Shown: positions 6,046 through 38,011 of the stretch, one piece after another
Layout of the letters: the number at the start of each line of letters is the position of its first letter
How positions within the stretch are numbered: the first letter of the stretch is position 1
Source of the DNA: an uncultured virus (IMG/VR IMGVR_UViG_3300024999_000036)
Lineage: Duplodnaviria > Heunggongvirae > Uroviricota > Caudoviricetes
Direction: 5' to 3' (one strand)
DNA: 38,669 nucleotides
Virus record (IMG/VR): IMGVR_UViG_3300024999_000036
The notes under the pieces: model-generated
Seen by the model: only the letters and a program-made list of their open reading frames with translations
What the model was told of the DNA's origin: nothing
Databases searched by the model: none
Made by a program: the position numbers and the translations under genes

Positions 6046-6110
6046 ATCATCATAAAACATGAATTTTATACAGTTTTTCAATTTCTAAAACTCTTATAAA
6101 TCAATGCTTT
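6046..6110. repeat. Composite palindromic site: core plus 23-bp accessory palindrome
   Basis: ATCATC-ATAAAA-catgaa-TTTTAT, 18 nt, AAACTCTTATAAATCAATGCTTT. Confidence 0.7.
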
Positions 6111-6366
6111 ATAGACTATCAGTTTTTTCATTTTTAATTTTTCAAGTAAATTATTTTTATTTAAAGAATTTATAAACATTTTATTAATTTGTTTGCGTTT
6201 TTTCTGATTGAAATTCACCATTATTAATATTAATAAGATTCATTTCACAATTCCAAGCATGATTACTATTACTAATATCTTGTAAACAAAATGGACATAT
6301 AATATTATTCATATTAATTATATTTTATCCTTTCTAATCTTTTATTTTATTTTTATTCCATTATTT

Positions 6367-6507
6367 TTATTCCATTACAAAATAACATCCACAATCACAA
6401 AATACAATAGGTTTACCATTATTATCTAATTTAACAACTTTAGGATCAATAATTAATTTACCACATCTTGGACAATTTATATTACCCATTAAAATACCTT
6501 TTGGCAT
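6367..6507 (-). CDS. 46-aa Zn-ribbon microprotein
   Basis: CPRCG...FCDCG; AGGAGG RBS. Confidence 0.6.
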   Translation of the reverse strand: MPKGILMGNINCPRCGKLIIDPKVVKLDNNGKPIVFCDCGCYFVME

Positions 6508-6533
6508 AAATATTCCTCCTATATATTTTATCA

Positions 6534-6725
6534 TCACTCATCTTCCAAATATCTCTCCAAACAATTAACACAATCTTCAATACATGCAATACGAAATTTA
6601 ATACAACAATATTTATCTCTATGTAATTTTTCAGCAATCTTTCTTTTTTCTTCTTTCCTCCCTTCTTCTTTTTTCATTTCTGAGAATTGTTCTATAGTAT
6701 CTGCATAAAAAGTTATTTTGCTCAT
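6534..6725 (-). CDS. Hypothetical Cys-rich protein
   Basis: ORF with RBS. Confidence 0.6.
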   Translation of the reverse strand: MSKITFYADTIEQFSEMKKEEGRKEEKRKIAEKLHRDKYCCIKFRIACIEDCVNCLERYLEDE

Positions 6726-6770
6726 AGATTACTCCTTTCTTTATAATTTTATTATACTTATATTATAATT

Positions 6771-6989
6771 TTACAATTTAATATTAATCCTAAAATCACA
6801 CTCAAGTATCAATTTTGCTAAATCTTTCTGCAATTTAGTTGCGATATTATGCCATTCTATTACTTCTATATCTGATATTTCTACAGGTTGATCCTGATTC
6901 TGAAATATAATAGATAATTCTTTAATCCTATCTTGAAGTGATTGAAATTGGTTATAAAATTGTTTATCTGATCTTATTGTATGTTGCAT
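6771..6989 (-). CDS. Hypothetical protein
   Basis: ORF with AGGAGG RBS. Confidence 0.6.
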   Translation of the reverse strand: MQHTIRSDKQFYNQFQSLQDRIKELSIIFQNQDQPVEISDIEVIEWHNIATKLQKDLAKLILECDFRINIKL

Positions 6990-7168
6990 GGTTAATTTGC
7001 CTCCTTTCTTACATTTTTACTCTAATGTCATTTATATCTGACGTACTAATACTGCCATCTTCATACACAATAATTGCTAATGTTTTACCATCTGCTCTAA
7101 CAAAATTAATAACATAAGCATCAAAACTTACTGGCATATCACAAAAATGTGTTAATTTTAATTTCATA

Positions 7169-7414
7169 TTATTTCTCCTTTTTGAAACTTTCTATTACAT
7201 TACAAACTCCTTCAATAAGTTTATAATAAAATTCATTAACAAAATCATCTAACGTCATTAAATGTTCTCCGTCCCATTCAAGTCTAATTTCATCAGAAGA
7301 ATAACCTTTAAGTCCTTTTATTTCACCAATCATGTCTGATATAATCTCATTTTTATTATATCCTTCTTCTAATTCAAAGAAATCAATTATTTGTTGTAGT
7401 TTTTTATTACTCAT
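7169..7414 (-). CDS. Hypothetical protein
   Basis: ORF with RBS. Confidence 0.6.
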   Translation of the reverse strand: MSNKKLQQIIDFFELEEGYNKNEIISDMIGEIKGLKGYSSDEIRLEWDGEHLMTLDDFVNEFYYKLIEGVCNVIESFKKEK

Positions 7415-7415
7415 A

Positions 7416-7598
7416 TTAATCTCCCTTATATTCTTCTAATATAATAGTCATTTCTTCTAACCATTCTGCACATTTTTCTAATTGTTGTTTTCTATAATTA
7501 ATGTCACGATTAGTAGACATTCTACGATAAGAATCCACTATTAAATTAAGATTTTTATTGTATTTTGATAATAGATTCACAGGTAATAGATTTAGAAT
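7416..7598 (-). CDS. 60-aa hypothetical protein (ATT start)
   Basis: AGAAAGGAGGTTTTAAT-ATT, same leader as the gene at 4409; open frame to TAA at 7416. Confidence 0.5.
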   Translation of the reverse strand: MLNLLPVNLLSKYNKNLNLIVDSYRRMSTNRDINYRKQQLEKCAEWLEEMTIILEEYKGD

Positions 7599-7636
7599 AT
7601 TAAAACCTCCTTTCTATATCATAATAAATGAAATTA

Positions 7637-8312: not shown

Positions 8313-8377
8313 ATCATCACAAAATTTATCTTTTGTGATGATATTTAATCTCACAAATTCTTTATTTATAAGGGTTT
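8313..8377. repeat. Composite palindromic site with a perfect 12-6-12 core
   Basis: ATCATCACAAAA-tttatc-TTTTGTGATGAT, then AAATTCTTTATTTATAAGGGTTT 18 nt after the inner arm. Confidence 0.75.
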
Positions 8378-8396
8378 CTAATTAGTCATTAGTTAA

Positions 8397-9245
8397 TTAT
8401 TTAAATAAATTTAACCATTCTTTATTATTAATCTTACTATTGCCACTAATCCCACCTTTCCCTCCTTTGAAATTTAATAAAAATGATTCTTCTGAATACT
8501 TTTTACATTCTGATACATATATTGGTGCTAATGTTTCTTGCATTAAATCACCAACAAATTCTTCCCAATTAAAACTAAAACCATATTTAGTTGTATTTTT
8601 ATATGGAGGGTCAATATAAAAAATAGAATTATCGGTATTTTTAAATCTTATGTATTCTAAAAAATCGTAAATATCAATATGTAAACAAGTTAATCCTTTA
8701 CATTTATCTACTATTGAAAGCATTCTTCTTTTAATAGTATCTGGCATTGGTATCATTGGATTAACAGGACTTTTTCTTTTTGCAATACCATTAGGTTGCC
8801 AATAATTTCTAAAAGAAGTATTATTCCAAATACCATTTTCTTTCCATATTTGTTTACCACCAAATGCACCAGATTGTAATAAAATATATCTGTATTCTTC
8901 ATCAATTTCAGGATTTTCTTTTGATAATTTTTTTAAATATGATTGTATTTTATATTTGTCTTTTGGTACATTTTCAATATATGTATTAAATTTTTCAATA
9001 TCATATTCTCCGCTACCTACTTTACTCCAAAACAAACCCCAAGAACTTTTATCTAACATAACAATATTTTTTGGTTTTATTCCTCTGGAGATTAATTCTA
9101 ATGATATTGTACCTGTGCCACAACATAAATCATAAAATTTTGTATTATTGTTTATAACATTTTGTTCAAATATTAAATCAATAATTTCAGTTACCACTCT
9201 TTGTTTTGCACCTTGATAGGTACAAGGCGGTATTAACTTTTGCAA
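8397..9245 (-). CDS. Orphan DNA adenine methyltransferase (D12/Dam-like)
   Basis: YQGAK, DLCCGTG (motif I), IDPPY (motif IV). Confidence 0.85.
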   Translation of the reverse strand: MQKLIPPCTYQGAKQRVVTEIIDLIFEQNVINNNTKFYDLCCGTGTISLELISRGIKPKNIVMLDKSSWGLFWSKVGSGEYDIEKFNTYIENVPKDKYKIQSYLKKLSKENPEIDEEYRYILLQSGAFGGKQIWKENGIWNNTSFRNYWQPNGIAKRKSPVNPMIPMPDTIKRRMLSIVDKCKGLTCLHIDIYDFLEYIRFKNTDNSIFYIDPPYKNTTKYGFSFNWEEFVGDLMQETLAPIYVSECKKYSEESFLLNFKGGKGGISGNSKINNKEWLNLFK

Positions 9246-9263: not shown

Positions 9264-10241
9264 TTAATAAATTCTTTTATCCAATAATCTAATGTCATTT
9301 ACTTCAAACATATCACAAATCAAACCTACCCTAACCCACATCCCATTTTCAACCTGCTCCCAATACTTTGCCCTATGATCTTTATCAATCTCAACACTAA
9401 TCTCATTTCTTCTAGGAAGAGGATGAAGTATAATAGCATCATCTTTTAAAGTATTTATATTGTTTTTATTAATACTATATCTACTCGTATCAATAAAATC
9501 TTCTCCATTAATTTGTCCATATTCATCTTGCAATCTTGTCATATATACAACATCCATTTCTGGTAATACCTTTTCAATATTATCAGTAACTTCATAATCG
9601 ATATCTAATTGTTCCAAAATGTCATTTTTAATTTGATATTTTTCAGGAGCAACGAAAAATAACTTTGTACCACTAACTTTATTTAAAAGTAATGATAATG
9701 ATCTTACAGTCCTACCTCTAAGAAGATCACCAACAAATGCAATTTTCTTACCTTCTAATAATCCATATTTCCATATGGTATAAAAATCCAATAATGCTTG
9801 AGTTGGATGTTCATTTGAACCAGAACCAGCATTAATAATTCTAATATCATTAGGTAGATTATTTGATATTTCATAAATAAAGTCAGAAGATGGATGTCTC
9901 ATAATAATTAAATCTGCATATTGTGAAAATGTTTTAATAGCATCTAATTCAGTCTCGCCTTTGATTTCTGAAGATGTGCTGGTGTCACGTATTTCAGAAC
10001 ATGACATACCTAATACGTGACACGCATTTTGAAATGATAAGAATGTACGTGTTGATGCTTGTTTAAAATACAATATTGCTCTTTTGTGAGATAGGATAGT
10101 TTTAAGGTATTGTAAACCTTCTTTAGTTAATGCAATGTTTCTAATATTGTCTGTTAGTTTACATAGATTTAGTAAGTTTTCTAATGTGAATTGATTTGAG
10201 TTTAAGCATCTTGTTTGAGAATTTGTATTTATGGGATTCAC
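9264..10241 (-). CDS. pyrB: Aspartate carbamoyltransferase catalytic subunit
   Basis: STRT, KGET, HPTQ, GDL..GRTVRS, TRLQ and HPLPR all intact. Confidence 0.93.
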   Translation of the reverse strand: MNPINTNSQTRCLNSNQFTLENLLNLCKLTDNIRNIALTKEGLQYLKTILSHKRAILYFKQASTRTFLSFQNACHVLGMSCSEIRDTSTSSEIKGETELDAIKTFSQYADLIIMRHPSSDFIYEISNNLPNDIRIINAGSGSNEHPTQALLDFYTIWKYGLLEGKKIAFVGDLLRGRTVRSLSLLLNKVSGTKLFFVAPEKYQIKNDILEQLDIDYEVTDNIEKVLPEMDVVYMTRLQDEYGQINGEDFIDTSRYSINKNNINTLKDDAIILHPLPRRNEISVEIDKDHRAKYWEQVENGMWVRVGLICDMFEVNDIRLLDKRIY

Positions 10242-13286: not shown

Positions 13287-13729
13287 TTTAATACTTTAAT
13301 CTCATACGGTGAAACATAAAACATTTCTGCCTTATAATCTGCATATGTAACAGTTTTCTTTTGATAATAAATTTTAATATCACTATCATCTTTGCAAGTT
13401 AACCAAATATATTTTACATTTTCACTATACTTAGGGTCATTGATTCGATATTCTTGTCCTTCTTTAACTTTGATATTTTCTTTAATAATTTGTGATTTAT
13501 CAAATTCTATGAAAGCACCATAATCACCTATAACAATTCTATTATAACCATTAGAGATTAAAGTGTTTGATAAGGTATATATCTTAAATTCTTTGTCACC
13601 ATTGATGTTTAATTGATTAGGTATATTATCTAAGTATTTTTGTCTTACTTCTTGAGATAGTTTTTTATTTAATTTTCTGTATTTATATTTTTGTGCTAAT
13701 AACTCTTGGAATTGAAGTAAGTTTTCTAT
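13283..13729 (-). CDS. 148-aa hypothetical protein missed by the ORF track (ATA start)
   Basis: Open frame IENLLQFQE...GYNRIVIGDYGAFIEF...VKYIWLT...VTYADY...; the ATA overlaps the upstream TAG; no NTG until the final codons. Confidence 0.75.
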   Translation of the reverse strand: MENLLQFQELLAQKYKYRKLNKKLSQEVRQKYLDNIPNQLNINGDKEFKIYTLSNTLISNGYNRIVIGDYGAFIEFDKSQIIKENIKVKEGQEYRINDPKYSENVKYIWLTCKDDSDIKIYYQKKTVTYADYKAEMFYVSPYEIKVLK

Positions 13730-13923
13730 AAATTATCACTTCCTTTCTCTTTATATTCTTTACATTTATTAAAATCACAACCTAAATGTTCCATATAATC
13801 TAAAGAAGTATTATTTGCAGTACACCAATCAAATATTTGCCCATAACCATAATAAGTATCCATGCAATATAATTCAGCTTCACTTATTTCTGTTTTGTTA
13901 ATACATGTGTTGCATTTAATCAT
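13726..13923 (-). CDS. Hypothetical Cys-rich protein
   Basis: ORF with GAGG RBS. Confidence 0.6.
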   Translation of the reverse strand: MIKCNTCINKTEISEAELYCMDTYYGYGQIFDWCTANNTSLDYMEHLGCDFNKCKEYKEKGSDNL

Positions 13924-14956: not shown

Positions 14957-15164
14957 ATTAGATTTCCTCCTTATTATTATGTATTATATTGGTAATTTCT
15001 TTAACATCTGTTGGAATATTGCAGGTTCACCTTTTTTATTTGCTCTAAATAATGGTTTTTCATTAATATCTGCTTTGCATACTGAGCATTTCATAATTTT
15101 TCCTCCTTATATTTATTTTTTATATTTAATTTTTTAAATTATAATAAAATGATACTTTTGTTAA

Positions 15165-15698
15165 TTATGATTCATTAGGTAATAAATCAATTTGACATAC
15201 ACTAAATACTTCTATACTATAATAAACACTTTCATAATTAACATCATCAGTAATCACATGTCTAATTTTATTATTATTGATGTACATTTCTTTTCTATTA
15301 TCAATAAACCTAACTACATAAACACGATCTCCTAAAGTTGTTTTATCTTCATATTCTGCTAGTATTTCTACTTTTAATCCTTTTTTATAATCATTTAAAT
15401 CTTTATTTATTACACCATATCTTTTTTTATTTGTGTCAAATGTAATTTCTATATTTTCTAAAATGAATCTATCTTTTTCAAAATATTCTCTTTCCCAATG
15501 ATTAAGACACCTCCTCCAAATATCTTCTGCTAATTTAGGATTTTCTTGATATATTCTATTAGCATAAAATCTAATTGCTGCCCTTGCTTTTGAATCAGTA
15601 TCTAACCTTAATACAAAATAATCTGCGTTAGGATCTACAGGTGTTCCATCTGATTTTTGAATTATGTATTTTTGATATAAACCTTTCATGTTTTCCAT
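15165..15698 (-). CDS. Hypothetical phage protein
   Basis: GLYQKY...YFVLRLDTD..AR.A...YA N-terminal phage domain. Confidence 0.65.
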   Translation of the reverse strand: MENMKGLYQKYIIQKSDGTPVDPNADYFVLRLDTDSKARAAIRFYANRIYQENPKLAEDIWRRCLNHWEREYFEKDRFILENIEITFDTNKKRYGVINKDLNDYKKGLKVEILAEYEDKTTLGDRVYVVRFIDNRKEMYINNNKIRHVITDDVNYESVYYSIEVFSVCQIDLLPNES

Positions 15699-15992: not shown

Positions 15993-16304
15993 TTATAGTT
16001 TTAAACTTTTATCATTCCATTTTTTAATTTTATTTTTAAGCATATCAGAGATATTGATAAAACTAAATCCAGACTTAAAAACAATACATAATGTAACAAT
16101 GATTATATCTACACATTCTTCTAAGATTCTTTCTTTAGTAATATTTTTAGTTTGACATTTATATCCACAACCTGGAGCATTTTCTGTTGATAAAATAGCT
16201 TCTGATAATTCACCTAATTCTTCAGAAAGTTTTAAACCTAATTCGAGTATAGATTTTCTTTCTTGCGTATGTAATTCTTTGATTGTTTTAAATTGTTGTA
16301 TCAT
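15993..16304 (-). CDS. MazG-like nucleotide pyrophosphohydrolase
   Basis: KLSEELGEL...EECVD (ExxE...ExxD). Confidence 0.8.
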   Translation of the reverse strand: MIQQFKTIKELHTQERKSILELGLKLSEELGELSEAILSTENAPGCGYKCQTKNITKERILEECVDIIIVTLCIVFKSGFSFINISDMLKNKIKKWNDKSLKL

Positions 16305-16338
16305 ATTATTAACTCCTTTTTGTATTAATAATTTATTT

Positions 16339-16794
16339 TTATATTAACTCATCCTTATAAATACAATTAGTCCATTCACATTTATTATTCCAGCAAACAA
16401 AACAACAAGTATAACAACCATTATTATGTTCTAATTCACAATGTCTACCATCTTCGGTAATATGAATACAATTAATTGATTTCTCTATAGGATAGTTTAA
16501 TTGTTTAATTTGATTATTATTTTGGAATACATCTACATAGTCTTTATCAGGATAATTTTCTTTGAGATGATTAATAATAAATTTTATTCTTAGATTATCA
16601 TTTATTCTTTTTATAATTCTTGTTTCTTCGTCATTGTAATTAGGATTTGTTTTAAATGAAAATCCACTAGGACAATCATTTTGAATTTTAATTTTATATT
16701 TATCTAATTTAGATGGTGTTCTGCCGTATTTATTTGTAAATTCCATTGATGCTAAGAATACAGCAGAATCATATTTATTTAGTTTTATGGTCAT
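16339..16794 (-). CDS. Hypothetical protein with Cys-rich C-terminus
   Basis: ORF with RBS. Confidence 0.6.
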   Translation of the reverse strand: MTIKLNKYDSAVFLASMEFTNKYGRTPSKLDKYKIKIQNDCPSGFSFKTNPNYNDEETRIIKRINDNLRIKFIINHLKENYPDKDYVDVFQNNNQIKQLNYPIEKSINCIHITEDGRHCELEHNNGCYTCCFVCWNNKCEWTNCIYKDELI

Positions 16795-16799
16795 GTTTA

Positions 16800-16991
16800 T
16801 TACTCCTTATTTAAATAATTCTTTGGTTCAATTAATACTTTTCCGAAACATCTTATTTGCTTTTGAATATAATAATCTCTTTCATGTAGCTTATATTCTT
16901 CTGACTTACTACCTGATACATCTCCACATGAAGAACAAAATGGTTCATCATTAATATATTCTGCACATATTGGACAATAGGTGTTTAACAT
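16800..16991 (-). CDS. Zn-ribbon microprotein
   Basis: CPIC...CSSC. Confidence 0.6.
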   Translation of the reverse strand: MLNTYCPICAEYINDEPFCSSCGDVSGSKSEEYKLHERDYYIQKQIRCFGKVLIEPKNYLNKE

Positions 16992-16996
16992 ATTTA

Positions 16997-17563
16997 TTAA
17001 CTCCTTATATTATTTAATATGCCTTGCAGTAATTCTAATTGATTTACTACGGATTCTGGACAGAATTTTTCAATATATTGTTTATCATTATTAATTATTG
17101 CTTCTCTTATTTTAGTTGCACTTAATCCCTCAAATAATTCATTACGTTCAAAAAATCTAAAATTGATTCTTTCTTTAATTTTATCTTCAAACCAATTTAA
17201 CATAATACTTGGTTCATCTGAATAATACAATGAAAATTTATTATTTTTTGTTTTTGAAATTATATTATAATATAGGTATAAACCCCATTCTTTATCATTC
17301 TCATAATCTTTTTCATGTGTAAAATCAGGTAAAGTATGTATTTTAATTTTATTTATATGATCAAAATCAAAATTATTAAACAATGCTCCATTTAACATAC
17401 TTATTCTTAATTCTATTGGAAAAGGATTTCTTGTTTCATATTCTTTATTTGCACTTCCTAGCATAACAATAACTTCATCATTATCAACACATGCTTGTTT
17501 AATTAAATGTAAATGTGCATTATGAACTGGTTGCATTCTTGCTAAAAATACTCCTGTTTTCAT
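16997..17563 (-). CDS. Nicotinamide mononucleotide adenylyltransferase (NadM-like)
   Basis: ARMQPVHNAH (HxxH), GSAN...RNPF...R, SATKIR. Confidence 0.85.
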   Translation of the reverse strand: MKTGVFLARMQPVHNAHLHLIKQACVDNDEVIVMLGSANKEYETRNPFPIELRISMLNGALFNNFDFDHINKIKIHTLPDFTHEKDYENDKEWGLYLYYNIISKTKNNKFSLYYSDEPSIMLNWFEDKIKERINFRFFERNELFEGLSATKIREAIINNDKQYIEKFCPESVVNQLELLQGILNNIRS

Positions 17564-17603
17564 GGGATTTTATCTCCTTTTTATTTTTACATTAATATAT
17601 TTG

Positions 17604-18182
17604 TTAACTTCGCCATGCTTTGCCTTGTTTCATAGCATTAACAATATTTTTAATTTGATTTGCAATTATTTCTGTACTTGCCTTTTCACCTTTAATAACT
17701 TGATATTTAATTTTATAATCATCTAGCATTTTTCTTAATTTAATATCATCTTCTTTTGCTTCTTCTGCTGTTTGAAATCTACCAAATGGGTTAAAAGGTT
17801 TAACTCTTTCAACAAAGTAGTTTATATTATTAAATTTATTAAATTCATTTAATACATATTGATTAAATGTTTCATCTACTAGTTTATTATTTTTAATTGC
17901 ATTTACTGTATTATAAAAAGCAGATAATAAAATAGGTGAATCAGTAACTATTACATCTAATTTATCTACGATTAATCGTCTTATTTTATAATGTTGTTTA
18001 CCAAAAATATAACATTGATCTTGAAATATTGCTTTTCTTTCCTCAATTAATTGATGTTTAACATACTCATCACAATATTCTACGTTAATTCCACCCATCC
18101 ATTTTAATTCTGCTGAAACATCCCAAGCTAAATTACTTTTTCCTGCCCCACTTCCAGCAAAAAAGTTTACTACTAAAGTCAT
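17604..18182 (-). CDS. NadR-like/AAA_28 P-loop kinase
   Basis: GSGAGKS Walker A, EYVK, TDSPILLS, GRFQ. Confidence 0.75.
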   Translation of the reverse strand: MTLVVNFFAGSGAGKSNLAWDVSAELKWMGGINVEYCDEYVKHQLIEERKAIFQDQCYIFGKQHYKIRRLIVDKLDVIVTDSPILLSAFYNTVNAIKNNKLVDETFNQYVLNEFNKFNNINYFVERVKPFNPFGRFQTAEEAKEDDIKLRKMLDDYKIKYQVIKGEKASTEIIANQIKNIVNAMKQGKAWRS

Positions 18183-18201: not shown

Positions 18202-18384
18202 CTATATTAATAATTTATAATCAAAACATGTGAATTTTTCTTTTCTCTTTTGCGTTGTGTCTGTTTTATATTGTGGACATTGAAATTCTTTAGGACATTT
18301 TAATCCTAAATCACAATTACATTTTTCATCACTGGTTAAGCATTTAATTTGTCTTTCTGTATAATGAACGCATATAATTTTCAT
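18202..18384 (-). CDS. Cys-rich microprotein
   Basis: ORF with RBS. Confidence 0.55.
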   Translation of the reverse strand: MKIICVHYTERQIKCLTSDEKCNCDLGLKCPKEFQCPQYKTDTTQKRKEKFTCFDYKLLI

Positions 18385-18410
18385 TAATTTATCTTCCTTT
18401 CTAGGTTAAG

Positions 18411-18434
18411 ATAAAACCTATATTTGGTTATGAT
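18411..18434. repeat. Palindromic core site (degenerate)
   Basis: ATAAAA-cctata-TTTGGT-TATGAT. Confidence 0.5.
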
Positions 18435-18448: not shown

Positions 18449-18495
18449 TATCTATATATAGTACATGTTGATATATTTAATACTATATATTGTAT
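18449..18495. promoter_or_regulatory. Tandem NrdR-like boxes
   Basis: tatCTATATATAGTac (18449) and ataCTATATATTGTat (18480), 31 bp apart. Confidence 0.65.
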
Positions 18496-18518: not shown

Positions 18519-19382
18519 TTAATAATTTGTAATCAAAACCTCTAAAGTCGTACTATCATCTTTTTCTTTCCTTTGATAATTTGCATTACCATATTTAACA
18601 TTTAATCTATGTATATTATATTTCTTAGACCATTCTTTTAATAAGTCATTACTTTTACCTTTACTTTCAAGCACATTTGATAGAGCAAACTTAACACTAT
18701 TATGATTTAATTTATCAAGTAGATTTAATAAGTCTATTTCATCTTTTTCTTTCCATCCATTTTTCTCATTGTAGGTTGCACAGGTAATTAAGTAAGGAGG
18801 GTCAAAATAGGCAAAATCATTCTTGGTTAATTCATCAATTTTAAATTCCCTAAAATCTAAATTTGCAAATTCAATATTTTTATTTTTTATACTCTCTACA
18901 AATTTAATTAAATTATCTTTCATAACAGAATTAAATGTTCTTTTGCCAAATGGCATGTTAAATTCTTTTTTATTGTTAAATCTAATTTGATTACTAAATG
19001 AATGTGCTACAAGAGTAAAGAAATACTTCCAATTTTTATCTCTTTCATTATAATGTTTTCTTAATTTTAAATAACCTTCTTGATTATCTTTTGATAATTC
19101 AAATTCTTCTATTACTGATTCTATTTGATTAATTATGTACTTTAGAGGGAATGTTTCACATACACAATAAAATACCATTACTTCAGTAAGAATATCATTA
19201 CATATAATTTTATTTGCTTTTACATTAATTACTACATTTGCTCCACCACAAAATAAATCAATAAATGTATCTATATTATCAGGGAATAGTGGTAGAATTT
19301 GAGGTAATAATTTATATTTACCTCCGACATAATTAAGTGGAGATTTTATTAAGTTTTCTTTGTTGAATTGGATAATATTCAC
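18519..19382 (-). CDS. Orphan DNA adenine methyltransferase (D12/Dam family)
   Basis: SPLNYVGGK, DLFCGG, RFN...FNMPFG, DPPY, EVLITNY. Confidence 0.92.
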   Translation of the reverse strand: MNIIQFNKENLIKSPLNYVGGKYKLLPQILPLFPDNIDTFIDLFCGGANVVINVKANKIICNDILTEVMVFYCVCETFPLKYIINQIESVIEEFELSKDNQEGYLKLRKHYNERDKNWKYFFTLVAHSFSNQIRFNNKKEFNMPFGKRTFNSVMKDNLIKFVESIKNKNIEFANLDFREFKIDELTKNDFAYFDPPYLITCATYNEKNGWKEKDEIDLLNLLDKLNHNSVKFALSNVLESKGKSNDLLKEWSKKYNIHRLNVKYGNANYQRKEKDDSTTLEVLITNY

Positions 19383-19424
19383 CTACTTTTATATTAGTAT
19401 TATATATCATAACAAAATTTCAAT

Positions 19425-19955
19425 TTAACATAATATATAATAAATACTATTATTTGTATAAATTATATAATTATCATCATTAATCTCTACATTAATCACT
19501 TTAGAAGTAGTAATATATCTATCATCATCATCATCCATAAACATAATTAAACTTTGTCCTATTTCTATATTTTCATTAAAACTAACACTTAATCCAAACC
19601 AATCAATATGTTTATTATTACCTTCAGAATCAGTTATTTTATTAATGATACCTTTCTTCATAACACATTTCCCTTTTATAATAACACCTTGTTCATCAAC
19701 ATAAATTCTATATAAAGGTGTACCATTAATACCATACCATTTGCCATTTAATTCTTTTCTCTCTTCTTCGGTTAGCAATCTACAATCTTCTTTTCTAAAC
19801 TCAACATTTATGAATCCAAAACCTTCTTCGAAATTGCCTATGTAATGTGTTTCTGTTTCTTCATGTACTCTGATATGTTCATCGTTCAATCTACCAATAT
19901 TACCTAATTTATGTATTGCTGGACTTCCACCTTTAAGTATCATTATTTTGTTCAT
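19425..19955 (-). CDS. Hypothetical protein
   Basis: ORF with RBS; bracketed by palindromic cores at 19412 and 19996. Confidence 0.7.
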   Translation of the reverse strand: MNKIMILKGGSPAIHKLGNIGRLNDEHIRVHEETETHYIGNFEEGFGFINVEFRKEDCRLLTEEERKELNGKWYGINGTPLYRIYVDEQGVIIKGKCVMKKGIINKITDSEGNNKHIDWFGLSVSFNENIEIGQSLIMFMDDDDDRYITTSKVINVEINDDNYIIYTNNSIYYILC

Positions 19956-22735: not shown

Positions 22736-22780
22736 GATATTATTTCCATTATTTCTTTATATATTTTGGTTTATTGTAAG

Positions 22781-22815: not shown

Positions 22816-22827
22816 ATACTTAACTAA

Positions 22828-23292: not shown

Positions 23293-23298
23293 GTTAAT

Positions 23299-25514: not shown

Positions 25515-25517
25515 ATA

Positions 25518-25724
25518 TTATATCTCCTTTACCCATTTAATTGCTTCATTGAAATTCATTATTTCTCCATCTACCTCCAAAACAGGAACACTCATAAAAT
25601 TCTTCTCCATCATAATATCCATGTCATTGCATTCTTCATAAACCACTTTCTTTTCATCTAATTTCATTTTTAATATTTTACACTTGGGACAGTGATTAGA
25701 ATAAAGTATTATTTTGATAATCAA
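25518..25724 (-). CDS. Glutaredoxin/NrdH-like protein
   Basis: CPKC, SVPVLEVDG. Confidence 0.85.
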   Translation of the reverse strand: MIIKIILYSNHCPKCKILKMKLDEKKVVYEECNDMDIMMEKNFMSVPVLEVDGEIMNFNEAIKWVKEI

Positions 25725-25771
25725 TTCCTCCTTATATTATATTTATTTTATTATTCCATTTATCCTATTAC

Positions 25772-28772: not shown

Positions 28773-29087
28773 TCAATTTAATTCTAATTGTTTTCTTAAC
28801 ATTTTTACTTCTTCTTGCAATTCATATGTTACTATTGTATGCCATTCTGATAAATTTTTAGCATTAAGTTTATTTTTAAATGATACTAATTTAGATTGAC
28901 ATTCATAAAACATATTAATTGGTGCTTTAGTATCTGTATTTTCAGCATATATTTTTAATGCTATTAATTCATTTATTAATGTTTGAATATAATCAAGATA
29001 ATCTTTTTTAGCTTGATTAGTAGTTTTTTCTACTGTATATCCCATAACTTCATAATCATTAATGTACATACTATTCTTTTTTGCCAT
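28773..29087 (-). CDS. Hypothetical protein
   Basis: ORF with RBS. Confidence 0.6.
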   Translation of the reverse strand: MAKKNSMYINDYEVMGYTVEKTTNQAKKDYLDYIQTLINELIALKIYAENTDTKAPINMFYECQSKLVSFKNKLNAKNLSEWHTIVTYELQEEVKMLRKQLELN

Positions 29088-29279
29088 TTTATTCTCCTTT
29101 AATTTAATTTACCAATTTAATCCCATACAAACTATTGATAAAATATAGTTACTTTCACCTTTAACAGTATCTATTACATCTTGCATTGTCTGAGCAATGC
29201 ACATTTCAGTTGTTTCATCTTCATATATTACTAAGAATCTAAAATATGAACGTGCCATAAATATCTTCTCCTTTTTAAT

Positions 29280-29543
29280 CTATTTTTTATATTCTAATGC
29301 CCTATCCCAACATAATTCACATTGTTCAATTTGTTCAGAATATGTACTAACACTTTCCTTTTCACATTCACCAATAAAATCATCTAGTCCAAATGCACTA
29401 GGACAATGGCTTACTAAACATGTTTTATCAATGATGTTTTTCCTTAACGTATTTTTAATATCTATAGATGCTTGCAAATGATCTATATCACCAGTTTTAA
29501 TATTATTACAATATTTAAGTATTATTTCTTTTCCTGTTTTCAT
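29280..29543 (-). CDS. Hypothetical Cys-containing protein
   Basis: ORF with RBS. Confidence 0.6.
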   Translation of the reverse strand: MKTGKEIILKYCNNIKTGDIDHLQASIDIKNTLRKNIIDKTCLVSHCPSAFGLDDFIGECEKESVSTYSEQIEQCELCWDRALEYKK

Positions 29544-29558
29544 AATATTTAGTCCTTT

Positions 29559-30131
29559 CTACTTTAGCTTTGATTTTAAATAATATCTAATATTCATAAG
29601 TTTAGTTAATATATTCTTATAATCATCAATATTTTTCCATAATAAATCTATATTTTCTATACTAATATAATCATTTTTATTACTCATAATTTTTATTATA
29701 GTTTTATCATTCCATATACATAAATTCTTATTGCAATCCAAATTTAAATGTATTTTTTCTCCTCTTATGTCTAACATATAACAATACAAAAGTATTTCTG
29801 ATAATAAATTAATCAATCTATCTTGATATGATTGAATTTCTGATTTTTCATATGTATAATATATTTCTTTAACCTGCCAATATATAGTATCCCAACTAAT
29901 TAGCATATGTATATTAGGACAAATATCATTATTATAAAATACTATTTCTTTTCGTCTCCAATATTCTTCCGATAAATCATTTATAATGTAGTTATATTTT
30001 TTATCTTTATTAAATTCTTCAATACAATTCACCACAGCAGAATCAATATTATTTTTATTTTTATTATAACTTAGTTTGGCATTAAGTTTTTCTACTATAA
30101 TTCTATATCTATGATCTATTTTATTACTCAT
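29559..30131 (-). CDS. Hypothetical protein
   Basis: ORF with GAGGTG RBS. Confidence 0.65.
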   Translation of the reverse strand: MSNKIDHRYRIIVEKLNAKLSYNKNKNNIDSAVVNCIEEFNKDKKYNYIINDLSEEYWRRKEIVFYNNDICPNIHMLISWDTIYWQVKEIYYTYEKSEIQSYQDRLINLLSEILLYCYMLDIRGEKIHLNLDCNKNLCIWNDKTIIKIMSNKNDYISIENIDLLWKNIDDYKNILTKLMNIRYYLKSKLK

Positions 30132-33198: not shown

Positions 33199-33450
33199 TT
33201 AATTACTGTTACTAATTTTTTCTATCTCATCTAAAATATTTTCATACGCAAATAAAATTCCTTGCCAATATCCTAAATTTTGACCACCAAAATAATTATG
33301 AGTTTCATTAGGTTTATCTCCATGAGATTCTTTTATTAAAGATATTCTTTTGTCTGCTCTTGATATTCTCTTTAATAAATATTCTTTAAAATTATTTATA
33401 TTTATCATTCCATTTCTTTTTATTGTCCCAATTCCATTCTTTTTCCACAT
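33199..33450 (-). CDS. Hypothetical protein
   Basis: ORF; start uncertain. Confidence 0.6.
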   Translation of the reverse strand: MWKKNGIGTIKRNGMININNFKEYLLKRISRADKRISLIKESHGDKPNETHNYFGGQNLGYWQGILFAYENILDEIEKISNSN

Positions 33451-33620
33451 TTACATTTAATAACACTAAATTCTTCTGCAATATCACTAGTAAAGTTTTT
33501 CATTTTATTATTGATACTATAATCCATATCTCCATCATACCAATCATATTTATCTTCTTTAATAATTTCTACTTCTTCAATAATTCCACAATCACATTCA
33601 AATCTGATAAATGCTTTCAT
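33420..33620 (-). CDS. Zn-ribbon microprotein
   Basis: CDCG...CKCG; AGGAGG RBS. Confidence 0.6.
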   Translation of the reverse strand: MKAFIRFECDCGIIEEVEIIKEDKYDWYDGDMDYSINNKMKNFTSDIAEEFSVIKCKCGKRMELGQ

Positions 33621-33639
33621 GTTTTCCTCCTAAATTTTA

Positions 33640-33663
33640 ATAAAATGTCGGTTTTATCATGAT
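33640..33663. repeat. Palindromic core site
   Basis: ATAAAA-tgtcgg-TTTTAT-CATGAT. Confidence 0.65.
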
Positions 33664-33667: not shown

Positions 33668-33714
33668 ACACTACATATAGTATTATTTAATTTTATTTAT
33701 ACTACATATAGTAT
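33668..33714. promoter_or_regulatory. Tandem NrdR-like boxes
   Basis: acaCTACATATAGTat (33668) and ataCTACATATAGTat (33699), 31 bp apart. Confidence 0.75.
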
Positions 33715-35768: not shown

Positions 35769-36055
35769 TTTTTACCCATAAACTCTGCTAAATTTCTTAT
35801 CCCAACGATAGATTGAAATGCACTCATAAAATCACATAGTTGATATTTAATTCCTATATCTGGATCTGGTTTATTATTTTTATACAATAATTTATGTGTT
35901 TTATAACAATCATTTTTGAATTTATTAAACTCAAATTCTCCATGATTATTATAAAATATAATTCCATACATTGCTAACTTATCAATAATATTATTAAGCA
36001 TATTTAAATCTATATTTTGTATTCTTTTTAAAACTTGTGTTTCTAAATTTTCCAT
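35765..36055 (-). CDS. Hypothetical protein
   Basis: ORF with RBS. Confidence 0.6.
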   Translation of the reverse strand: MENLETQVLKRIQNIDLNMLNNIIDKLAMYGIIFYNNHGEFEFNKFKNDCYKTHKLLYKNNKPDPDIGIKYQLCDFMSAFQSIVGIRNLAEFMGKN

Positions 36056-36056
36056 A

Positions 36057-36335
36057 TTAATTTTCTCCCTTCTCTTTAATTATATAACCTTTACCATTAC
36101 ATTTACTACATGAATAATATGATACTGAATATCCACCATAACCACTACTATCAGAAATTTCACCAGTACTACGACATGTTTTACAAGTTGAAATAGATAT
36201 ATTCAAGGTGTCTTCAATTTTACCTAGTTTTTCATCTTCTTCTATTTCTTCTTTGAATAGTTTAGTCATTTTTTCTTTAATTGATTTTTTATTGTTCATT
36301 ATAATATCTATTTGTTTAGTTAAAATATCATTCAT
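36057..36335 (-). CDS. Protein with DnaJ-type CxxCxxxG Zn finger
   Basis: CKTCRSTG...CSKCNGKG. Confidence 0.65.
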   Translation of the reverse strand: MNDILTKQIDIIMNNKKSIKEKMTKLFKEEIEEDEKLGKIEDTLNISISTCKTCRSTGEISDSSGYGGYSVSYYSCSKCNGKGYIIKEKGEN

Positions 36336-36550
36336 AATTATTTTCTCCTTCTATTTAAAATAAGGACAATCTAATCTTGATTCTAATTTAAGACACAATA
36401 CACAAACATCATAACCACCCATAGTACATTGTAATTTACATTTACTGCATACACATTTTTCACAGATAGGATTTAAATCTATAAGTGAATAATTCTTTGT
36501 TTTTTAAAATATTTAGTTGACCATTTTAACATTTTTATTCCTCTTTTATA

Positions 36551-36808
36551 TTAATCTAATATATAATATTTCCCTTTCATGAATTCCTTTCCTAATCTAA
36601 TTTCATCCATATTATTATTTACTATAACTACTTTATCACCAAAAACACCTTGAATTGTCTTTCCATTAGACCATGCGGTCAATGCTTCTATAAAAGTTAC
36701 TTCTTTAGTTTTTTCACTTTTTAATTTAATTAATTGATTAAACTATTCTTTATCTTTAATATCTAATGCAATATCAATTAAATCATCATAGATAGTAGTA
36801 TTTTTCAT
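36551..36808 (-). pseudogene. IDEAL-like domain gene interrupted by an in-frame TAG
   Basis: LIDIALDIKDKE*FNQL... (TAG at 36743-36745 where the family usually has W); frame continues to TAA at 36551; strong RBS. Confidence 0.65.
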
Positions 36809-36832
36809 AGTTTTTATTTACCTCTCCTTATA

Positions 36833-37276
36833 TTAATCTGCACAACTATCACATTTTCCTGTATCATAATAATCAGCAAATAATTCTCCGCATACTGAAC
36901 AAACACTTAAACAATCGTCACAAAAATATTCATCAAAACTTTTATCTTTATTATGATATTTTAATTCTGAAGGTTTTAATGTTTTATTACAACCTTTACA
37001 ATATATTTCTAATGTTTCAATTTCTATTTTTACTTTAACTTTTCTATCCTTTTGAAAAATATCATTAGGATACAATCTAACTTTATCTCCTATTGGTTTA
37101 CAATTATCAAAATCTGAATCATCTATTTCTGCATAATCAAATACATCTATTTCTCTACCTTTTATTCTTTTAAATGTTTCTATGTCTACGTCCCAACAGA
37201 AACATTCATAATCACCAGAATTAATTGCTGTGAATTCTATTGTCTTTTTCATGTTAATTGGTCTCCTTTTTAACAA
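36833..37276 (-). CDS. Hypothetical protein with C-terminal Zn fingers
   Basis: Four CxxC pairs; real start probably MKKTI. Confidence 0.65.
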   Translation of the reverse strand: MLKRRPINMKKTIEFTAINSGDYECFCWDVDIETFKRIKGREIDVFDYAEIDDSDFDNCKPIGDKVRLYPNDIFQKDRKVKVKIEIETLEIYCKGCNKTLKPSELKYHNKDKSFDEYFCDDCLSVCSVCGELFADYYDTGKCDSCAD

Positions 37277-37677
37277 TATTTTTCTATTAATATACCACCT
37301 TTATCCATACACATTTTATAATAAAATTTATTAACTCTTTCCAACATTTCTTTGAAATCATCATATAATTCATCTGAATATACCTCTGTTGGTTCATTTA
37401 TATCTGTATTAAATCCTTCTTTAATTTCTTCCGTTAACCATTCTTCACAAAATTTAATAAATTTGTTTCTATTGCTAGTTGAAATAATAATTGTATTTTT
37501 CGTAACAGTAATACGATCTCTATTTTCTTGAAATTTTTCTTTAACCTTCTGAATAAATTTATCTTGATTTTTAGAATGATATAAATCACACATAAACCTA
37601 CCATCTTCATAAATTATTCTCATAATATTAATCTCCTTTAAACATTGATTTCCATTTATTCTTAATTTCTTTTTCAA
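37270..37677 (-). CDS. Hypothetical protein
   Basis: ORF; real start probably MRIIY. Confidence 0.6.
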   Translation of the reverse strand: MKKKLRINGNQCLKEINIMRIIYEDGRFMCDLYHSKNQDKFIQKVKEKFQENRDRITVTKNTIIISTSNRNKFIKFCEEWLTEEIKEGFNTDINEPTEVYSDELYDDFKEMLERVNKFYYKMCMDKGGILIEKYC

Positions 37678-37918
37678 TTTCTTGATTCCAGAACCAAATA
37701 GGTGTATCCATTTTTACTTTACAACAATTAAACTTCTCGCAATTATTACAATCATGCATAGACTGTGCTGTACCTAATGGTTCATATTTATTATTGCCTT
37801 TGTTTTTATAATAATTACAACCTGACCATTTTAAATTTCTGTTATTAGAGCTTAATTCAAAATATTCTTCATTAAGTTTATTTAATTCTTCTTGTGTAGT
37901 GATTATGTATTTATTCAT
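37628..37918 (-). CDS. Hypothetical protein
   Basis: ORF with RBS. Confidence 0.6.
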   Translation of the reverse strand: MNKYIITTQEELNKLNEEYFELSSNNRNLKWSGCNYYKNKGNNKYEPLGTAQSMHDCNNCEKFNCCKVKMDTPIWFWNQEIEKEIKNKWKSMFKGD

Positions 37919-37952
37919 AACTTTCTCCTTTCCTAATATTTTGTAAGTTTGA

Positions 37953-38011
37953 ATAAAACATCGATTTTATGCTGATATTGAGAATAACAAAGTGTTGATT
38001 TTATTGGGTTT
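37953..38011. repeat. Composite palindromic site
   Basis: ATAAAA-catcga-TTTTAT-GCTGAT, then AAAGTGTTGATTTTATTGGGTTT 18 nt after the inner arm. Confidence 0.7.

What the first reader, a model, noticed from the sequence alone, without database searches (positions are those of the whole stretch)
6046..38011. Dispersed 12-6-12 palindromes bracket accessory genes: a candidate phage gene-cassette recombination system
Seen: consensus ATCRTN-AYAAAA-N6-TTTTRT-NAYGAT at gene boundaries. Inner arms start at 6052, 8319 (perfect 12-bp arms), 13269, 15144, 18411, 19412, 19996, 33640 and 37953, with weaker copies at 7624, 20607, 28544 and 32466. The spacer is always 6 bp but its sequence differs each time (catgaa, tttatc, ctaaat, tgatac, cctata, tttcaa, ttctga, tgtcgg, catcga). 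Several copies overlap the stop codon of the upstream gene and sit just before the next RBS, so single genes or small blocks are neatly bracketed: the Dam gene 18519-19382, gene 19425-19955, and the rSAM/DUF2284 block. Known: 11-13-bp inverted arms around a 6-8-bp spacer is the geometry of tyrosine-recombinase sites (dif, pdif modules, loxP). Inferred: these could be crossover sites of an integron-like or dif-module-like system that shuffles accessory genes. No tyrosine recombinase is in this window, and the AT-rich background makes the weak copies uncertain.
Basis: partly seen in the sequence, partly recalled or inferred. Interest (0 to 1): 0.85.

Follow-up and report, generated by a model that had tools for sequence, protein, structure and literature searches.

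The report
Repressor-type palindromes between phage genes
A 30-base two-fold symmetric DNA site repeated between the small genes of this uncultured SPbeta-like phage is most likely a docking site for an integrase-shaped repressor, not a gene-shuffling machine.

Summary
The palindrome is real. AYAAAA-N6-TTTTRT occurs 6 times in the window against 0.5 expected, only with a 6-bp spacer. A 152-kb relative (G001) has 13 exact copies against 2 in the control and 31 profile hits against 1.75 in shuffles. Nearly all copies are intergenic. They sit between a stop codon and the next ribosome-binding site, or 6-8 bp upstream of a host-type promoter.

The arms show no covariation, and most copies make no stable hairpin. 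So this is a protein site on duplex DNA.

G001 encodes a homologue of MrpR/SroF in conserved yopQ-yopR order. MrpR/SroF is the tyrosine-recombinase-fold master repressor of phage SPbeta, which binds dispersed SPBRE boxes placed in the same two positions. By alignment the homologue lacks key catalytic residues.

The cassette-recombination reading is weak:
- Spacers nearly all differ.
- 54 of 60 mosaic borders between window and G001 lie elsewhere.
- Five sites do sit exactly at homology breaks, as in PeSL-type exchange.

This is a new, symmetric variant of a known kind. The scan has reached similar conclusions on other SPbeta-like phages. No binding was tested.

The parts
37947..37976 (-). Palindrome copy (inner arms 37953-37970, spacer catcga on +). 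Homology with G001 ends at its 3' inner arm.
   Evidence: 33.3 bits
37987..38014 (-). Upstream hairpin-type module (class A) of the composite cassette; the stem is partly degenerate in this copy.
33634..33663 (-). Palindrome copy; a stop TAA abuts the left arm and the ribosome-binding site lies 8 nt after the inner arm.
   Evidence: 31.3 bits
33668..33714 (-). Pair of NrdR boxes (six conserved positions, 15-bp linker); the palindrome begins 4 nt after box 2.
   Evidence: definition from PMC13584703
19990..20019 (-). Degenerate palindrome copy. Together with its hairpin it is a 133-nt insertion or deletion relative to G001.
   Evidence: 1.9 bits
20029..20055 (-). Class A hairpin module belonging to the 19996 copy.
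19406..19435 (-). Degenerate palindrome copy overlapping the stop of gene 19425-19955; the G001 orthologue (126506) is an 11-of-12 palindrome.
   Evidence: contigs diverge at 19434/19435 (weak)
18405..18434 (-). Palindrome copy. Homology with G001 starts at its 5' outer arm; G001 carries a 1.3-kb radical-SAM gene insertion just upstream.
   Evidence: 20.0 bits, not a training site
18449..18495 (-). Pair of NrdR boxes; the palindrome begins 14 nt after box 2.
15138..15167 (-). Palindrome copy overlapping the stop of gene 15165-15698. Homology with G001 ends just after it.
   Evidence: 17.3 bits
13263..13292 (-). Palindrome copy. The 18-nt core including the spacer is identical in G001 (132978), while both flanking genes differ.
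8313..8342 (-). Perfect 12-6-12 palindrome, inside a 1.9-kb window-specific segment that also holds the methyltransferase gene 8397-9245.
   Evidence: dG -13.5
8353..8379 (-). Class A hairpin module belonging to the 8319 copy.
6046..6075 (-). Palindrome copy 6 nt upstream of a consensus host-type promoter. Homology with G001 starts just 3' of it.
6085..6114 (-). Class A hairpin module belonging to the 6052 copy.
6011..6039 (-). Sigma-A-type promoter TTGACA-17-TATAAT directly downstream of the 6052 palindrome.

Best explanation
The palindromes are dispersed operator-type sites on duplex DNA for a phage-encoded regulator. The most likely regulator is an MrpR/SroF-like 'dead' tyrosine recombinase, like the one encoded by the closest relative.

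As in phage SPbeta, this integrase-fold protein would clamp each site. The sites lie either directly in front of a ribosome-binding site or just upstream of the -35 box of a host-type promoter. Binding there would keep some 30-40 transcription units of the large accessory and early region silent in the lysogen.

The arm-spacer-arm geometry would then be a legacy of the recombinase ancestry of the protein. Two protomers may bind, one per 12-bp arm.

The site is one module of composite junction cassettes, which run: hairpin module or a pair of host NrdR boxes, then the palindrome, then a Shine-Dalgarno sequence or promoter. It is the only conserved sequence in otherwise diverse junctions, so it sometimes ends up as the point of exchange between related phages.

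Shown: reality, placement and lack of pairing constraint of the sites; presence and synteny of the MrpR homologue in the relative. Inferred: that this protein binds these sites, and that binding represses.
For: 1. The site is real and specific: 6 exact against 0.52 expected, only at a 6-bp spacer. G001 has 13 exact against 2 in the control and 31 profile hits against 1.75 in shuffles. G004 has 11 against 0.97.
2. It is a protein site, not a hairpin. In 35 distinct sites the arms give 267 Watson-Crick pairs against 264 in shuffles, P = 0.35. Median RNA hairpin energy is -1.7 kcal/mol, and 31 of 39 copies are weaker than -4.
3. Placement is regulatory. 37 of 39 sites are outside ORFs. The Shine-Dalgarno sequence follows within 2-18 nt in 21 of 39. 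Four sites lie 6-8 nt before TTGACA-17-TATAAT, and three more do so in G004. Seven of nine NrdR-box pairs are followed by a copy, five of them at +3 or +4.
4. G001 47187-48251 matches solved MrpR/YopR structures over about 300 residues, E = 6e-15. It carries PF22822. A YopQ homologue precedes it as in SPbeta, E = 3e-25 and 3e-19. Its replication genes follow the yorG-yorL order.
5. Published work: MrpR has a tyrosine-recombinase fold, no recombinase activity, and binds SPBRE boxes at 10 promoter regions across SPbeta (PMC10516654, abstract and passages). SroF of phi3T clamps a 26-bp box with A-tracts (bioRxiv 10.1101/2025.11.27.690993, section 5).
6. In 7 SPbeta upstream regions I found SPBRE flush with the ribosome-binding site (yopM, yopV), 3-20 nt before it (yonX, yonP, yorE), or 4 nt before a -35 box (aimR). 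These are the same two placements.
7. G004, whose MrpR homologue is 75% identical, carries the same site family and hairpin module.
Against: - The MrpR-like gene is in the relative, not in the 38.7-kb window, and no whole genome is held for the window.
- No copy lies directly upstream of the yopQ-yopR-like operon in G001, whereas SPbeta has an SPBRE before its operon.
- Known MrpR/SroF boxes are asymmetric, 15-26 bp, read by a monomer, and differ in sequence. This site is 30 bp and two-fold symmetric.
- The co-occurrence of protein and site rests on two related contigs and is confounded by relatedness.
- No other DNA-binding regulator could be excluded. Most small ORFs have no family, and 18 of the 168 ORFs of 75-249 aa, plus 3 of the 35 of 250 aa or more, were not scanned.
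- No binding, footprint or expression data exist.
Confidence: 0.55

Rival explanations
1. The palindrome is, or contains, a phage-specific promoter (middle or late class) inside a terminator-promoter cassette of the PeSL type. The upstream hairpin ends the previous transcript, and the palindrome region restarts transcription with a modified host polymerase.
For: - Fourteen copies share a roughly 75-nt cassette of hairpin plus palindrome, 62% mean column identity. The hairpin lies at a fixed +19 in three copies, with dG -6.5 to -14.3.
- In G001 a copy at 88193 is followed by about 60 nt of structured non-coding sequence, then a hairpin, then the next copy at 88343. This reads like promoter, small RNA, terminator.
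- No room is left for another promoter between hairpin and Shine-Dalgarno sequence.
- Sites are absent from the core replication block 90-107 kb of G001.
Against: - Neither arm fits the sigma-A -10 or -35 consensus in a consistent register.
- A start inside the site would leave almost no leader before the Shine-Dalgarno sequence.
- Two-fold symmetry is not expected of a promoter.
- No sigma factor or phage RNA polymerase was found in G001, though the contig is 82% complete and the T7-type RNA-polymerase search also found nothing in its control genomes.
- Four copies sit upstream of a separate consensus promoter.
- The hairpins lack a clear U-tract.
Confidence: 0.15
2. A host DNA-binding protein (a global regulator or nucleoid protein of the unknown low-GC host) recognises the A-tract/T-tract palindrome, and the phage has recruited it, as it has recruited NrdR.
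For: - The phage clearly uses a host regulator: NrdR-box pairs are present, 2 in the window and 7 in G001 against 0 in 50 shuffles.
- Early promoters are host sigma-A type.
- The motif has phased A4 and T4 tracts 10 bp apart.
Against: - From memory, I checked it against the CodY, ComK (A4-N5-T4), Fur, CRP/FNR and IHF consensus sites, and none fits. No tool tested this.
- More distant relatives G002 and G003 do not show enrichment: 0 against 0, and 6 against 3.
- The host is unknown, so the idea could not be tested (one search found no host genome).
Confidence: 0.12
3. One reading: the palindromes are crossover sites of a site-specific (tyrosine-recombinase, dif-module or integron-like) system that moves gene cassettes.
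For: - The 12-6-12 geometry fits.
- A tyrosine-recombinase-fold protein is encoded in G001, with invariant R158/R160 and Y349 across 13 homologues.
- Six of 60 homology borders fall inside 5 sites. One site keeps an identical 18-mer while both flanks differ.
- One hairpin-plus-palindrome cassette is itself an insertion or deletion.
Against: - There are 35 distinct spacers among 39 sites, which blocks strand exchange between copies (the rule is established for Cre and Xer).
- Breaks lie at site edges, not in the spacer.
- 54 of 60 borders are elsewhere, and enrichment over other junctions is not significant, P = 0.12.
- All strong matches between window and G001 are collinear.
- The protein lacks the Lys, His II, Arg II and His/Trp III equivalents by alignment to MrpR.
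- The family is experimentally recombination-dead in SPbeta.
Confidence: 0.08
4. The element works as a nucleic-acid hairpin: an intrinsic terminator, an RNA processing or stability signal, or a folded single-strand site like integron attC.
For: - Three of 39 copies form strong hairpins, dG -9 to -13.5, and the terminator scan picked up 8319.
- The innermost arm pair shows a slight excess of compensated changes, P about 0.01.
Against: - There is no overall covariation, P = 0.35.
- At the Y/R position the coding strand has 6 C-A mismatches against 2 G-U pairs in 19 exact sites.
- Median dG is -1.7, and 8 copies do not fold at all.
- No T-run follows the element.
- No Rfam family matches.
Confidence: 0.04

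Closest known systems
SPBRE / Phi3TRE boxes bound by MrpR (YopR, SroF), the integrase-fold master repressor of SPbeta-like Bacillus phages (PMC10516654; bioRxiv 10.1101/2025.11.27.690993)
   Same: - Many copies are spread over a large temperate-type phage genome that has a serine integrase.
- Copies lie in intergenic and promoter regions, flush with the ribosome-binding site or just upstream of a -35 box.
- The box is A/T-tract rich.
- The relative encodes an MrpR homologue in yopQ-yopR order that lacks catalytic residues.
   Different: - This site is 30 bp and two-fold symmetric, with a 6-bp variable spacer. SPBRE is about 15-22 bp with weak dyad symmetry, and the phi3T box is 26 bp, asymmetric and read by a monomer.
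- There is no sequence likeness.
- Copies number 30-40 instead of about 10.
- The host and lineage are uncultured, from groundwater, at 24% GC.
- Protein identity to MrpR is only 26%.
- Binding is not shown.
PeSL (promoter-early stem-loop) cassettes of T4-type phages (PMC2839356; PMC4122927)
   Same: - Small composite regulatory cassettes lie between accessory genes in plastic regions and are absent from core gene blocks.
- Some homology breaks between close relatives map to them.
- A cassette can itself be gained or lost.
   Different: - PeSLs are a sigma-70 promoter plus a GC-rich terminator stem-loop. Here the conserved core is a protein-type palindrome that is not a recognisable promoter.
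- The association with borders is not significant here.
- Mini-circles could not be looked for.
Xer dif / pdif modules and loxP-type tyrosine-recombinase core sites
   Same: Inverted 11-13-bp arms lie around a 6-8-bp spacer, and the arms behave as independent protein half-sites.
   Different: - No competent recombinase was found.
- Spacers differ between copies.
- Borders are not in the spacer.
- The flanked units have not moved.

Membership tests
MrpR/SroF repressor with dispersed SPBRE-type boxes | Phage encodes an MrpR/SroF homologue (core-binding plus catalytic-like domains of the integrase fold) | tested here: met
   Met in the close relative G001: E = 6e-15 to PDB 8a0a and 8bj6 over about 300 residues, and PF22822. 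It cannot be tested for the window's own genome, which is not held.
MrpR/SroF repressor with dispersed SPBRE-type boxes | Repressor gene follows a yopQ homologue | tested here: met
   G001 45810-47183 against YopQ gives E = 3e-25; 47187-48251 against YopR gives E = 3e-19. The genes are adjacent and in the same order.
MrpR/SroF repressor with dispersed SPBRE-type boxes | Catalytic set of tyrosine recombinases is incomplete | tested here: met
   By pairwise alignment to MrpR at 26% identity: Lys becomes D193, His II becomes T286, Arg II becomes Y289/Y290, His/Trp III becomes V342. R158 and Y349 are kept. T286 and Y289 are near-invariant in 13 homologues. This rests on alignment, not on a structure.
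MrpR/SroF repressor with dispersed SPBRE-type boxes | Many copies of one box in intergenic or promoter regions across the genome | tested here: met
MrpR/SroF repressor with dispersed SPBRE-type boxes | Box placed at the ribosome-binding site or next to the -35 box of sigma-A promoters | tested here: met
   Compare (this phage group) (7 SPbeta upstream regions).
MrpR/SroF repressor with dispersed SPBRE-type boxes | Asymmetric 15-26-bp box read by one monomer; sequence like SPBRE or Phi3TRE | tested here: not met
   The site is a 30-bp dyad with a variable 6-bp spacer and has no sequence likeness.
MrpR/SroF repressor with dispersed SPBRE-type boxes | Protein binds the box and represses | not testable with these tools
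   Needs EMSA, ChAP-seq or a reporter assay.
Tyrosine-recombinase crossover sites (dif, pdif, loxP) | Inverted 11-13-bp arms around a 6-8-bp spacer | tested here: met
   The inner 6 bp are strong and the outer 6 bp weaker.
Tyrosine-recombinase crossover sites (dif, pdif, loxP) | Catalytically competent tyrosine recombinase | tested here: not met
   There is none in the window. The only such fold in G001 is MrpR-like and lacks key residues. G001 is 82% complete.
Tyrosine-recombinase crossover sites (dif, pdif, loxP) | Partner sites share the spacer (overlap) sequence | tested here: not met
   35 distinct spacers among 39 sites; only orthologous positions share one.
Tyrosine-recombinase crossover sites (dif, pdif, loxP) | Gene gain and loss borders fall in the spacer, and modules occur in new contexts | tested here: not met
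   Six of 60 borders touch a site, all at its edges. Enrichment gives P = 0.12. All matches are collinear.
Integron attC | Conserved single-strand hairpin with pairing kept by compensatory change | tested here: not met
   No covariation and weak folding.
Integron attC | IntI integrase with attI and Pc next to the array | tested here: not met
   Nothing of the kind was found among 37 window ORFs or 182 G001 ORFs scanned. No dedicated IntI search was run.
PeSL cassettes | Terminator stem-loop joined to a consensus early promoter | tested here: inconclusive
   A hairpin module sits in 14 aligned copies. A consensus promoter follows only 4 of 39 sites. The hairpins lack a U-tract.
PeSL cassettes | Borders of insertions, deletions and replacements between close relatives map to the cassettes | tested here: inconclusive
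   Five sites are at borders with base-level precision, but there is no significant excess over other junctions.
PeSL cassettes | Mini-circles from recombination between neighbouring cassettes | not testable with these tools
   Only assembled contigs of DNA runs were on hand.

The most novel reading that the evidence does not exclude
The palindromes are living fossils of recombination sites. In this lineage the MrpR-like protein would still bind as a pair on a dif-like 12-6-12 core and bring sites together. That would make the operators preferred points of cassette exchange between co-infecting relatives, carried out by residual activity or by handing synapsed DNA to general recombination. One protein-site pair would then both silence the prophage and shape its mosaic accessory genome.
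Probability: 0.1. Interest if true: 0.8.

Novelty: new variant of a known kind. Interest (0 to 1): 0.45.

Why it matters
If the reading holds, the integrase-fold repressor system would extend beyond its cultured hosts. It is so far characterised in SPbeta-like Bacillus phages. Here it would appear in a distant, uncultured, very AT-rich groundwater phage group.

It would also show an operator that still has the arm-spacer-arm layout of a recombination site. That form may be an evolutionary intermediate between a recombinase and the monomeric SroF/MrpR repressor. It gives a direct test of whether such repressors can bind as pairs.

The finding is also a practical caution. Dispersed dif-like palindromes at gene borders in large phages need not mean a cassette-recombination system.

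The tight coupling to host NrdR boxes in front of non-reductase genes suggests that the phage ties parts of its programme to the host's deoxynucleotide state.

Tried and rejected
- **Expression data.** No RNA holder was listed for the stretch. Only Logan contigs of four groundwater DNA runs could be laid. They showed many strain variants, joints with 21-25-nt sides that I do not trust, and no clean joint at a palindrome. No circles could be sought.
- **Near-identical phage records.** None found by megablast.
- **Whole genome of the window.** Not held.
- **Host or prophage relatives in species genomes.** None found.
- **Metagenome scan.** Gave only the same relatives.
- **Rfam.** No family in the window plus 100 kb of G001.
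- **tRNAs.** None in G001.
- **Sigma factor or polymerase.** No Sigma70_r2 or T7-type RNA polymerase in G001. The second search had no positive control. No sigma factor or known regulator appeared among 182 scanned G001 ORFs, apart from one marginal Q-like hit.
- **MrpR homologue in G002 and G003.** Not found, but these contigs are 31-35% complete. L019's record was not held.
- **De novo search for exact 5-mer dyads in distant relatives.** Gave nothing usable.
- **Sigma-A promoter inside the palindrome.** I tried several registers (right outer arm as extended -10, left arm TATCAT as -10, hairpin loop TTGATT as -35). None was consistent across copies.
- **Shift of half-site preference in G004** (ACCAAA/TTTGGT more common). 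I read 7 of 22 half-sites against 10 of 62 by eye. No script counted them and no test was run, and the profile is biased, so I make no co-evolution claim.
- **Complex prediction, structure prediction and the protein atlas.** Not used.

Full report
**What the window is.** The window has 24% G+C, and essentially all genes lie on the minus strand.

It carries nucleotide-metabolism and DNA-modification genes:
- class III ribonucleotide reductase NrdD/NrdG
- a ThyA-like enzyme
- dUTPase
- a 5'-nucleotidase
- a dATP/dGTP pyrophosphohydrolase
- a carbamoyltransferase
- two Dam-type methyltransferases

It also carries a large serine recombinase at 440-2071 and many small ORFs without a family. Ribosome-binding sites are long Firmicute-type AGAAAGGAGG words. 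Several perfect sigma-A promoters (TTGACA-17-TATAAT) face the genes.

**Relatives used.**
- There is no near-identical phage record, and no whole genome is held for the window.
- The best relative is a 151,782-bp viral contig, G001. Its VWA protein is 96% identical. I fetched G001 in full. Its plus strand corresponds to the window's minus strand.
- Runs holding the stretch are groundwater metagenomes.

- AYAAAA-N6-TTTTRT occurs 6 times against 0.52 expected.
- Enrichment appears only at a spacer of exactly 6, in the window (6 against 0.59) and in G001 (13 against 2.17). Spacers 2-5 and 7-11 and the reversed arm order are at background.
- G001 has 13 exact copies against 2 for the reversed-pattern control.

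I built a 36-nt profile from the 19 exact copies.
- It finds 31 sites in G001 at 12 bits or more, against 1.75 in shuffles; 18 of these are not training sites.
- It finds 8 in the window against 0.50, and 11 in a more distant relative, G004, against 0.97.
- One window hit (9631) lies inside the carbamoyltransferase gene and is probably chance.

19412 and 19996 are degenerate but backed by orthology or context. 20607 and 28544 are borderline. 7624 and 32466 are not members.

Sites are intergenic: 7 of 8 in the window and 30 of 31 in G001 are centred outside ORFs, where only 17-18% of bases lie.

**Anatomy on the coding strand.** The consensus is a(a/t)ATCAT(g) AYAAAA N6 TTTTRT nnnRAw. The left outer arm is better kept than the right. 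Three contexts recur.
- *Squeezed junctions.* A stop codon lies within 12 nt or inside the left arm in 12 of 39 sites. A Shine-Dalgarno word follows 2-18 nt after the inner arm in 21 of 39.
- *Class A.* A conserved hairpin module (AAACCC..loop..GGGTTT) lies 10-19 nt upstream and forms a roughly 75-nt cassette. Fourteen copies align at 62% column identity. By eye, the stem shows compensatory changes in several copies and is decayed in others.
- *Class B.* One pair of 16-bp boxes with a 15-16-bp linker ends 3-4 nt before the palindrome.

The class B boxes match all six positions that define NrdR boxes: C4, A6, A8, T9, T11 and G13 (PMC13584703, passages read). There are 2 pairs in the window and 7 in G001, against none in 50 shuffles.

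Four sites lie 6-8 nt upstream of a consensus sigma-A -35 box. Three more do so in G004.

No site lies in the core replication block of G001, about 90-107 kb.

**Hairpin or protein site?**
- In 35 sites with distinct spacers, the 12 mirrored arm positions give 267 Watson-Crick pairs against 264 after shuffling the right arms, P = 0.35.
- At the Y/R position of the 19 exact sites, the combinations are C-A 6, C-G 5, T-A 6 and T-G 2. This is close to independence.
- Predicted RNA hairpins are weak. Median dG is -1.7 kcal/mol, 31 of 39 are weaker than -4, and only 3 are at -8 or stronger.
- Only the innermost pair shows a slight excess of compensated change.

The dyad therefore reflects two half-sites, each matching a consensus. 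This is the signature of a protein on duplex DNA. It is not the signature of a terminator, a processing stem or an attC-like fold.

**Do the sites mark gene gain and loss?** Window and G001 are mosaics: blocks of 80-98% identity are broken by about 30 replaced or inserted segments.

Base-level alignments show five sites exactly at breaks.
- At 37953, homology runs through the hairpin and the spacer and stops after the 3' inner arm.
- At 15144, it stops just after the site.
- At 18411, it begins at the 5' outer arm, and G001 has a 1.3-kb radical-SAM gene inserted upstream.
- At 6052, it begins just 3' of the site.
- At 13269, the 18-nt core including the spacer is identical in both phages, while both neighbouring genes differ.
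- The 19996 hairpin-plus-palindrome cassette is itself a 133-nt insertion or deletion.

Against that:
- Only 6 of 60 borders touch a site.
- 45 of 60 borders lie at gene junctions in general.
- Junctions with a site carry a border in 6 of 9 cases, against 28 of 70 for other junctions (Fisher one-sided P = 0.12).
- All strong matches are collinear, so no cassette has moved.
- Contigs of related strains diverge at 19434/19435, the edge of one site. Many other loose ends exist, so I give this little weight.

**The protein lead.** Scanning G001 for recombinases found one tyrosine-recombinase-like ORF (47187-48251; phrog_5830, PF22822 MrpR_N_CB).
- Against solved structures it matches only MrpR/YopR of phage SPbeta, E = 6e-15 over about 300 residues.
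- The preceding gene is a YopQ homologue, so the yopQ-yopR order is kept.
- G001's helicase, primase, RecJ-like and polymerase genes follow the order of SPbeta yorG-yorL.
- Among phage records, homologues occur only in 32 SPbeta-like and Tsamsa-like Bacillus phages.
- Sixteen metagenomic homologues exist, all with the two MrpR domains.

What is published about this family:
- MrpR has a tyrosine-recombinase fold, has lost recombinase function, and is the master repressor of SPbeta. [quoted passage not shown]
- A 2025 preprint reports the phi3T homologue SroF clamped as a monomer around a 26-bp box rich in A-tracts (bioRxiv 10.1101/2025.11.27.690993, outline, section 5 and passages).

Aligned to MrpR, the G001 protein has D, T, Y/Y and V at the Lys, His II, Arg II and His/Trp III positions. 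It keeps an Arg at the Arg I position and the Tyr. These residues are invariant or nearly so in 13 homologues.

**Comparison with SPBRE.** I extracted seven SPbeta upstream regions named in the paper.
- The shared box is AAATACAAAWAATATGTATATA. Its arms ATACA..TGTAT are present in 5 of 8 copies.
- It ends flush with GGAGG at yopM and yopV.
- It ends 3, 14 and about 20 nt before the Shine-Dalgarno sequence at yonX, yonP and yorE.
- It ends 4 nt before TTGACT at aimR.

These are the two placements seen here. The sequences themselves are unrelated. The present site is longer and clearly two-fold symmetric, which the known boxes are not.

G004, whose MrpR homologue is 75% identical, carries the same site family and hairpin module. 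G002 and G003 are more distant and 31-35% complete. They show neither an MrpR homologue nor enrichment. This co-occurrence is suggestive, but it is confounded by relatedness.

**Conclusion.** The best-supported reading is a dispersed operator for an integrase-fold repressor, built into composite junction cassettes. These cassettes also recruit host NrdR. I put this at about 0.55.

The coincidence of five sites with homology breaks fits exchange at the only conserved words of diverse junctions. This was described for PeSL cassettes of T4-type phages (PMC2839356, abstract and passages; PMC4122927, abstract). It does not call for a dedicated recombination system.

The rivals are a phage-specific promoter, a host factor, true site-specific recombination and a hairpin function. 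They are listed with their evidence in the rival explanations.

**Earlier scan notes.** After I had reached MrpR independently, a look-up showed that this scan had drawn similar conclusions on three other SPbeta-like genomes, and had met PeSL-like cassettes several times. The first of those notes gave me the SroF name and so led to the preprint. They are not independent evidence.

Noticed in passing
window 33668-33714 and 18449-18495; G001 36851, 64675, 66635, 73238, 81747, 83172, 89968: These are pairs of NrdR boxes: all six conserved positions, with a 15-16-bp linker. There are 9 pairs against 0 in 50 shuffles. They sit in front of genes that are not ribonucleotide reductases, for example the QueD/E/C-like operon in G001. 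The phage seems to tie several units to the host dATP/ATP sensor.
   Followed up: partly
window 13287-13725 (minus strand): A roughly 165-codon open frame has no ATG, GTG or TTG start. It directly follows gene 13726-13923 in another frame and ends inside the palindrome. It may be a frameshifted fusion, an unusual start or a decaying gene. G001 has an unrelated short ORF there.
   Followed up: partly
G001 88211-88300 (L008:8211-8300): About 45 nt of self-complementary non-coding sequence lies between a palindrome copy and a class A hairpin. The next copy follows 150 nt on. This is a candidate small RNA gene, and no Rfam family matches it.
   Followed up: partly
window 22763-25725 versus G001 119727-123625: The ribonucleotide reductase is swapped. 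The window has class III NrdD plus its activase. G001 has a different reductase (phrog_367) followed by an HNH endonuclease.
   Followed up: no
window 3080-5501, 9264-10241, 15993-18182, 22828-23292; G001 83283-84980, 86635-87387, 92564-93778, 28817-29587: The gene set hints at non-standard DNA or nucleotide pools. The window has a ThyA-like enzyme, dUTPase, NT5C nucleotidase, dATP/dGTP pyrophosphohydrolase, MazG-like protein, aspartate/ornithine carbamoyltransferase, cytidylyltransferase and a kinase-like ATPase. The relative has QueC/D/E-like, Mom-like, PARP-like and Thg1-like genes.
   Followed up: no
window 440-2071 versus G001 143736-145253: Both phages carry a large serine recombinase at this end. 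The two genes lie on opposite strands relative to the neighbouring genes, in a region that does not align.
   Followed up: no
window 33420-33620, 18202-18384, 14984-15094, 37628-37918; G001 26124, 52929, 64781, 12339: The first gene after a palindrome is very often a small cysteine-rich protein (CxxC pairs), possibly a family of zinc-ribbon early proteins.
   Followed up: no
window 36057-36335 (G001 108054-108332): A 92-aa protein gives a marginal match (E = 9.5e-6, partial) to Q-like antitermination proteins.
   Followed up: no
G001 43180-44055 and 39302-39724: Two proteins carry MazF-like growth-inhibitor domains close to the yopQ-yopR-like pair. This recalls the MazEF link of the SPbeta/phi3T lysis-lysogeny switch mentioned in the MrpR paper.
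   Followed up: no
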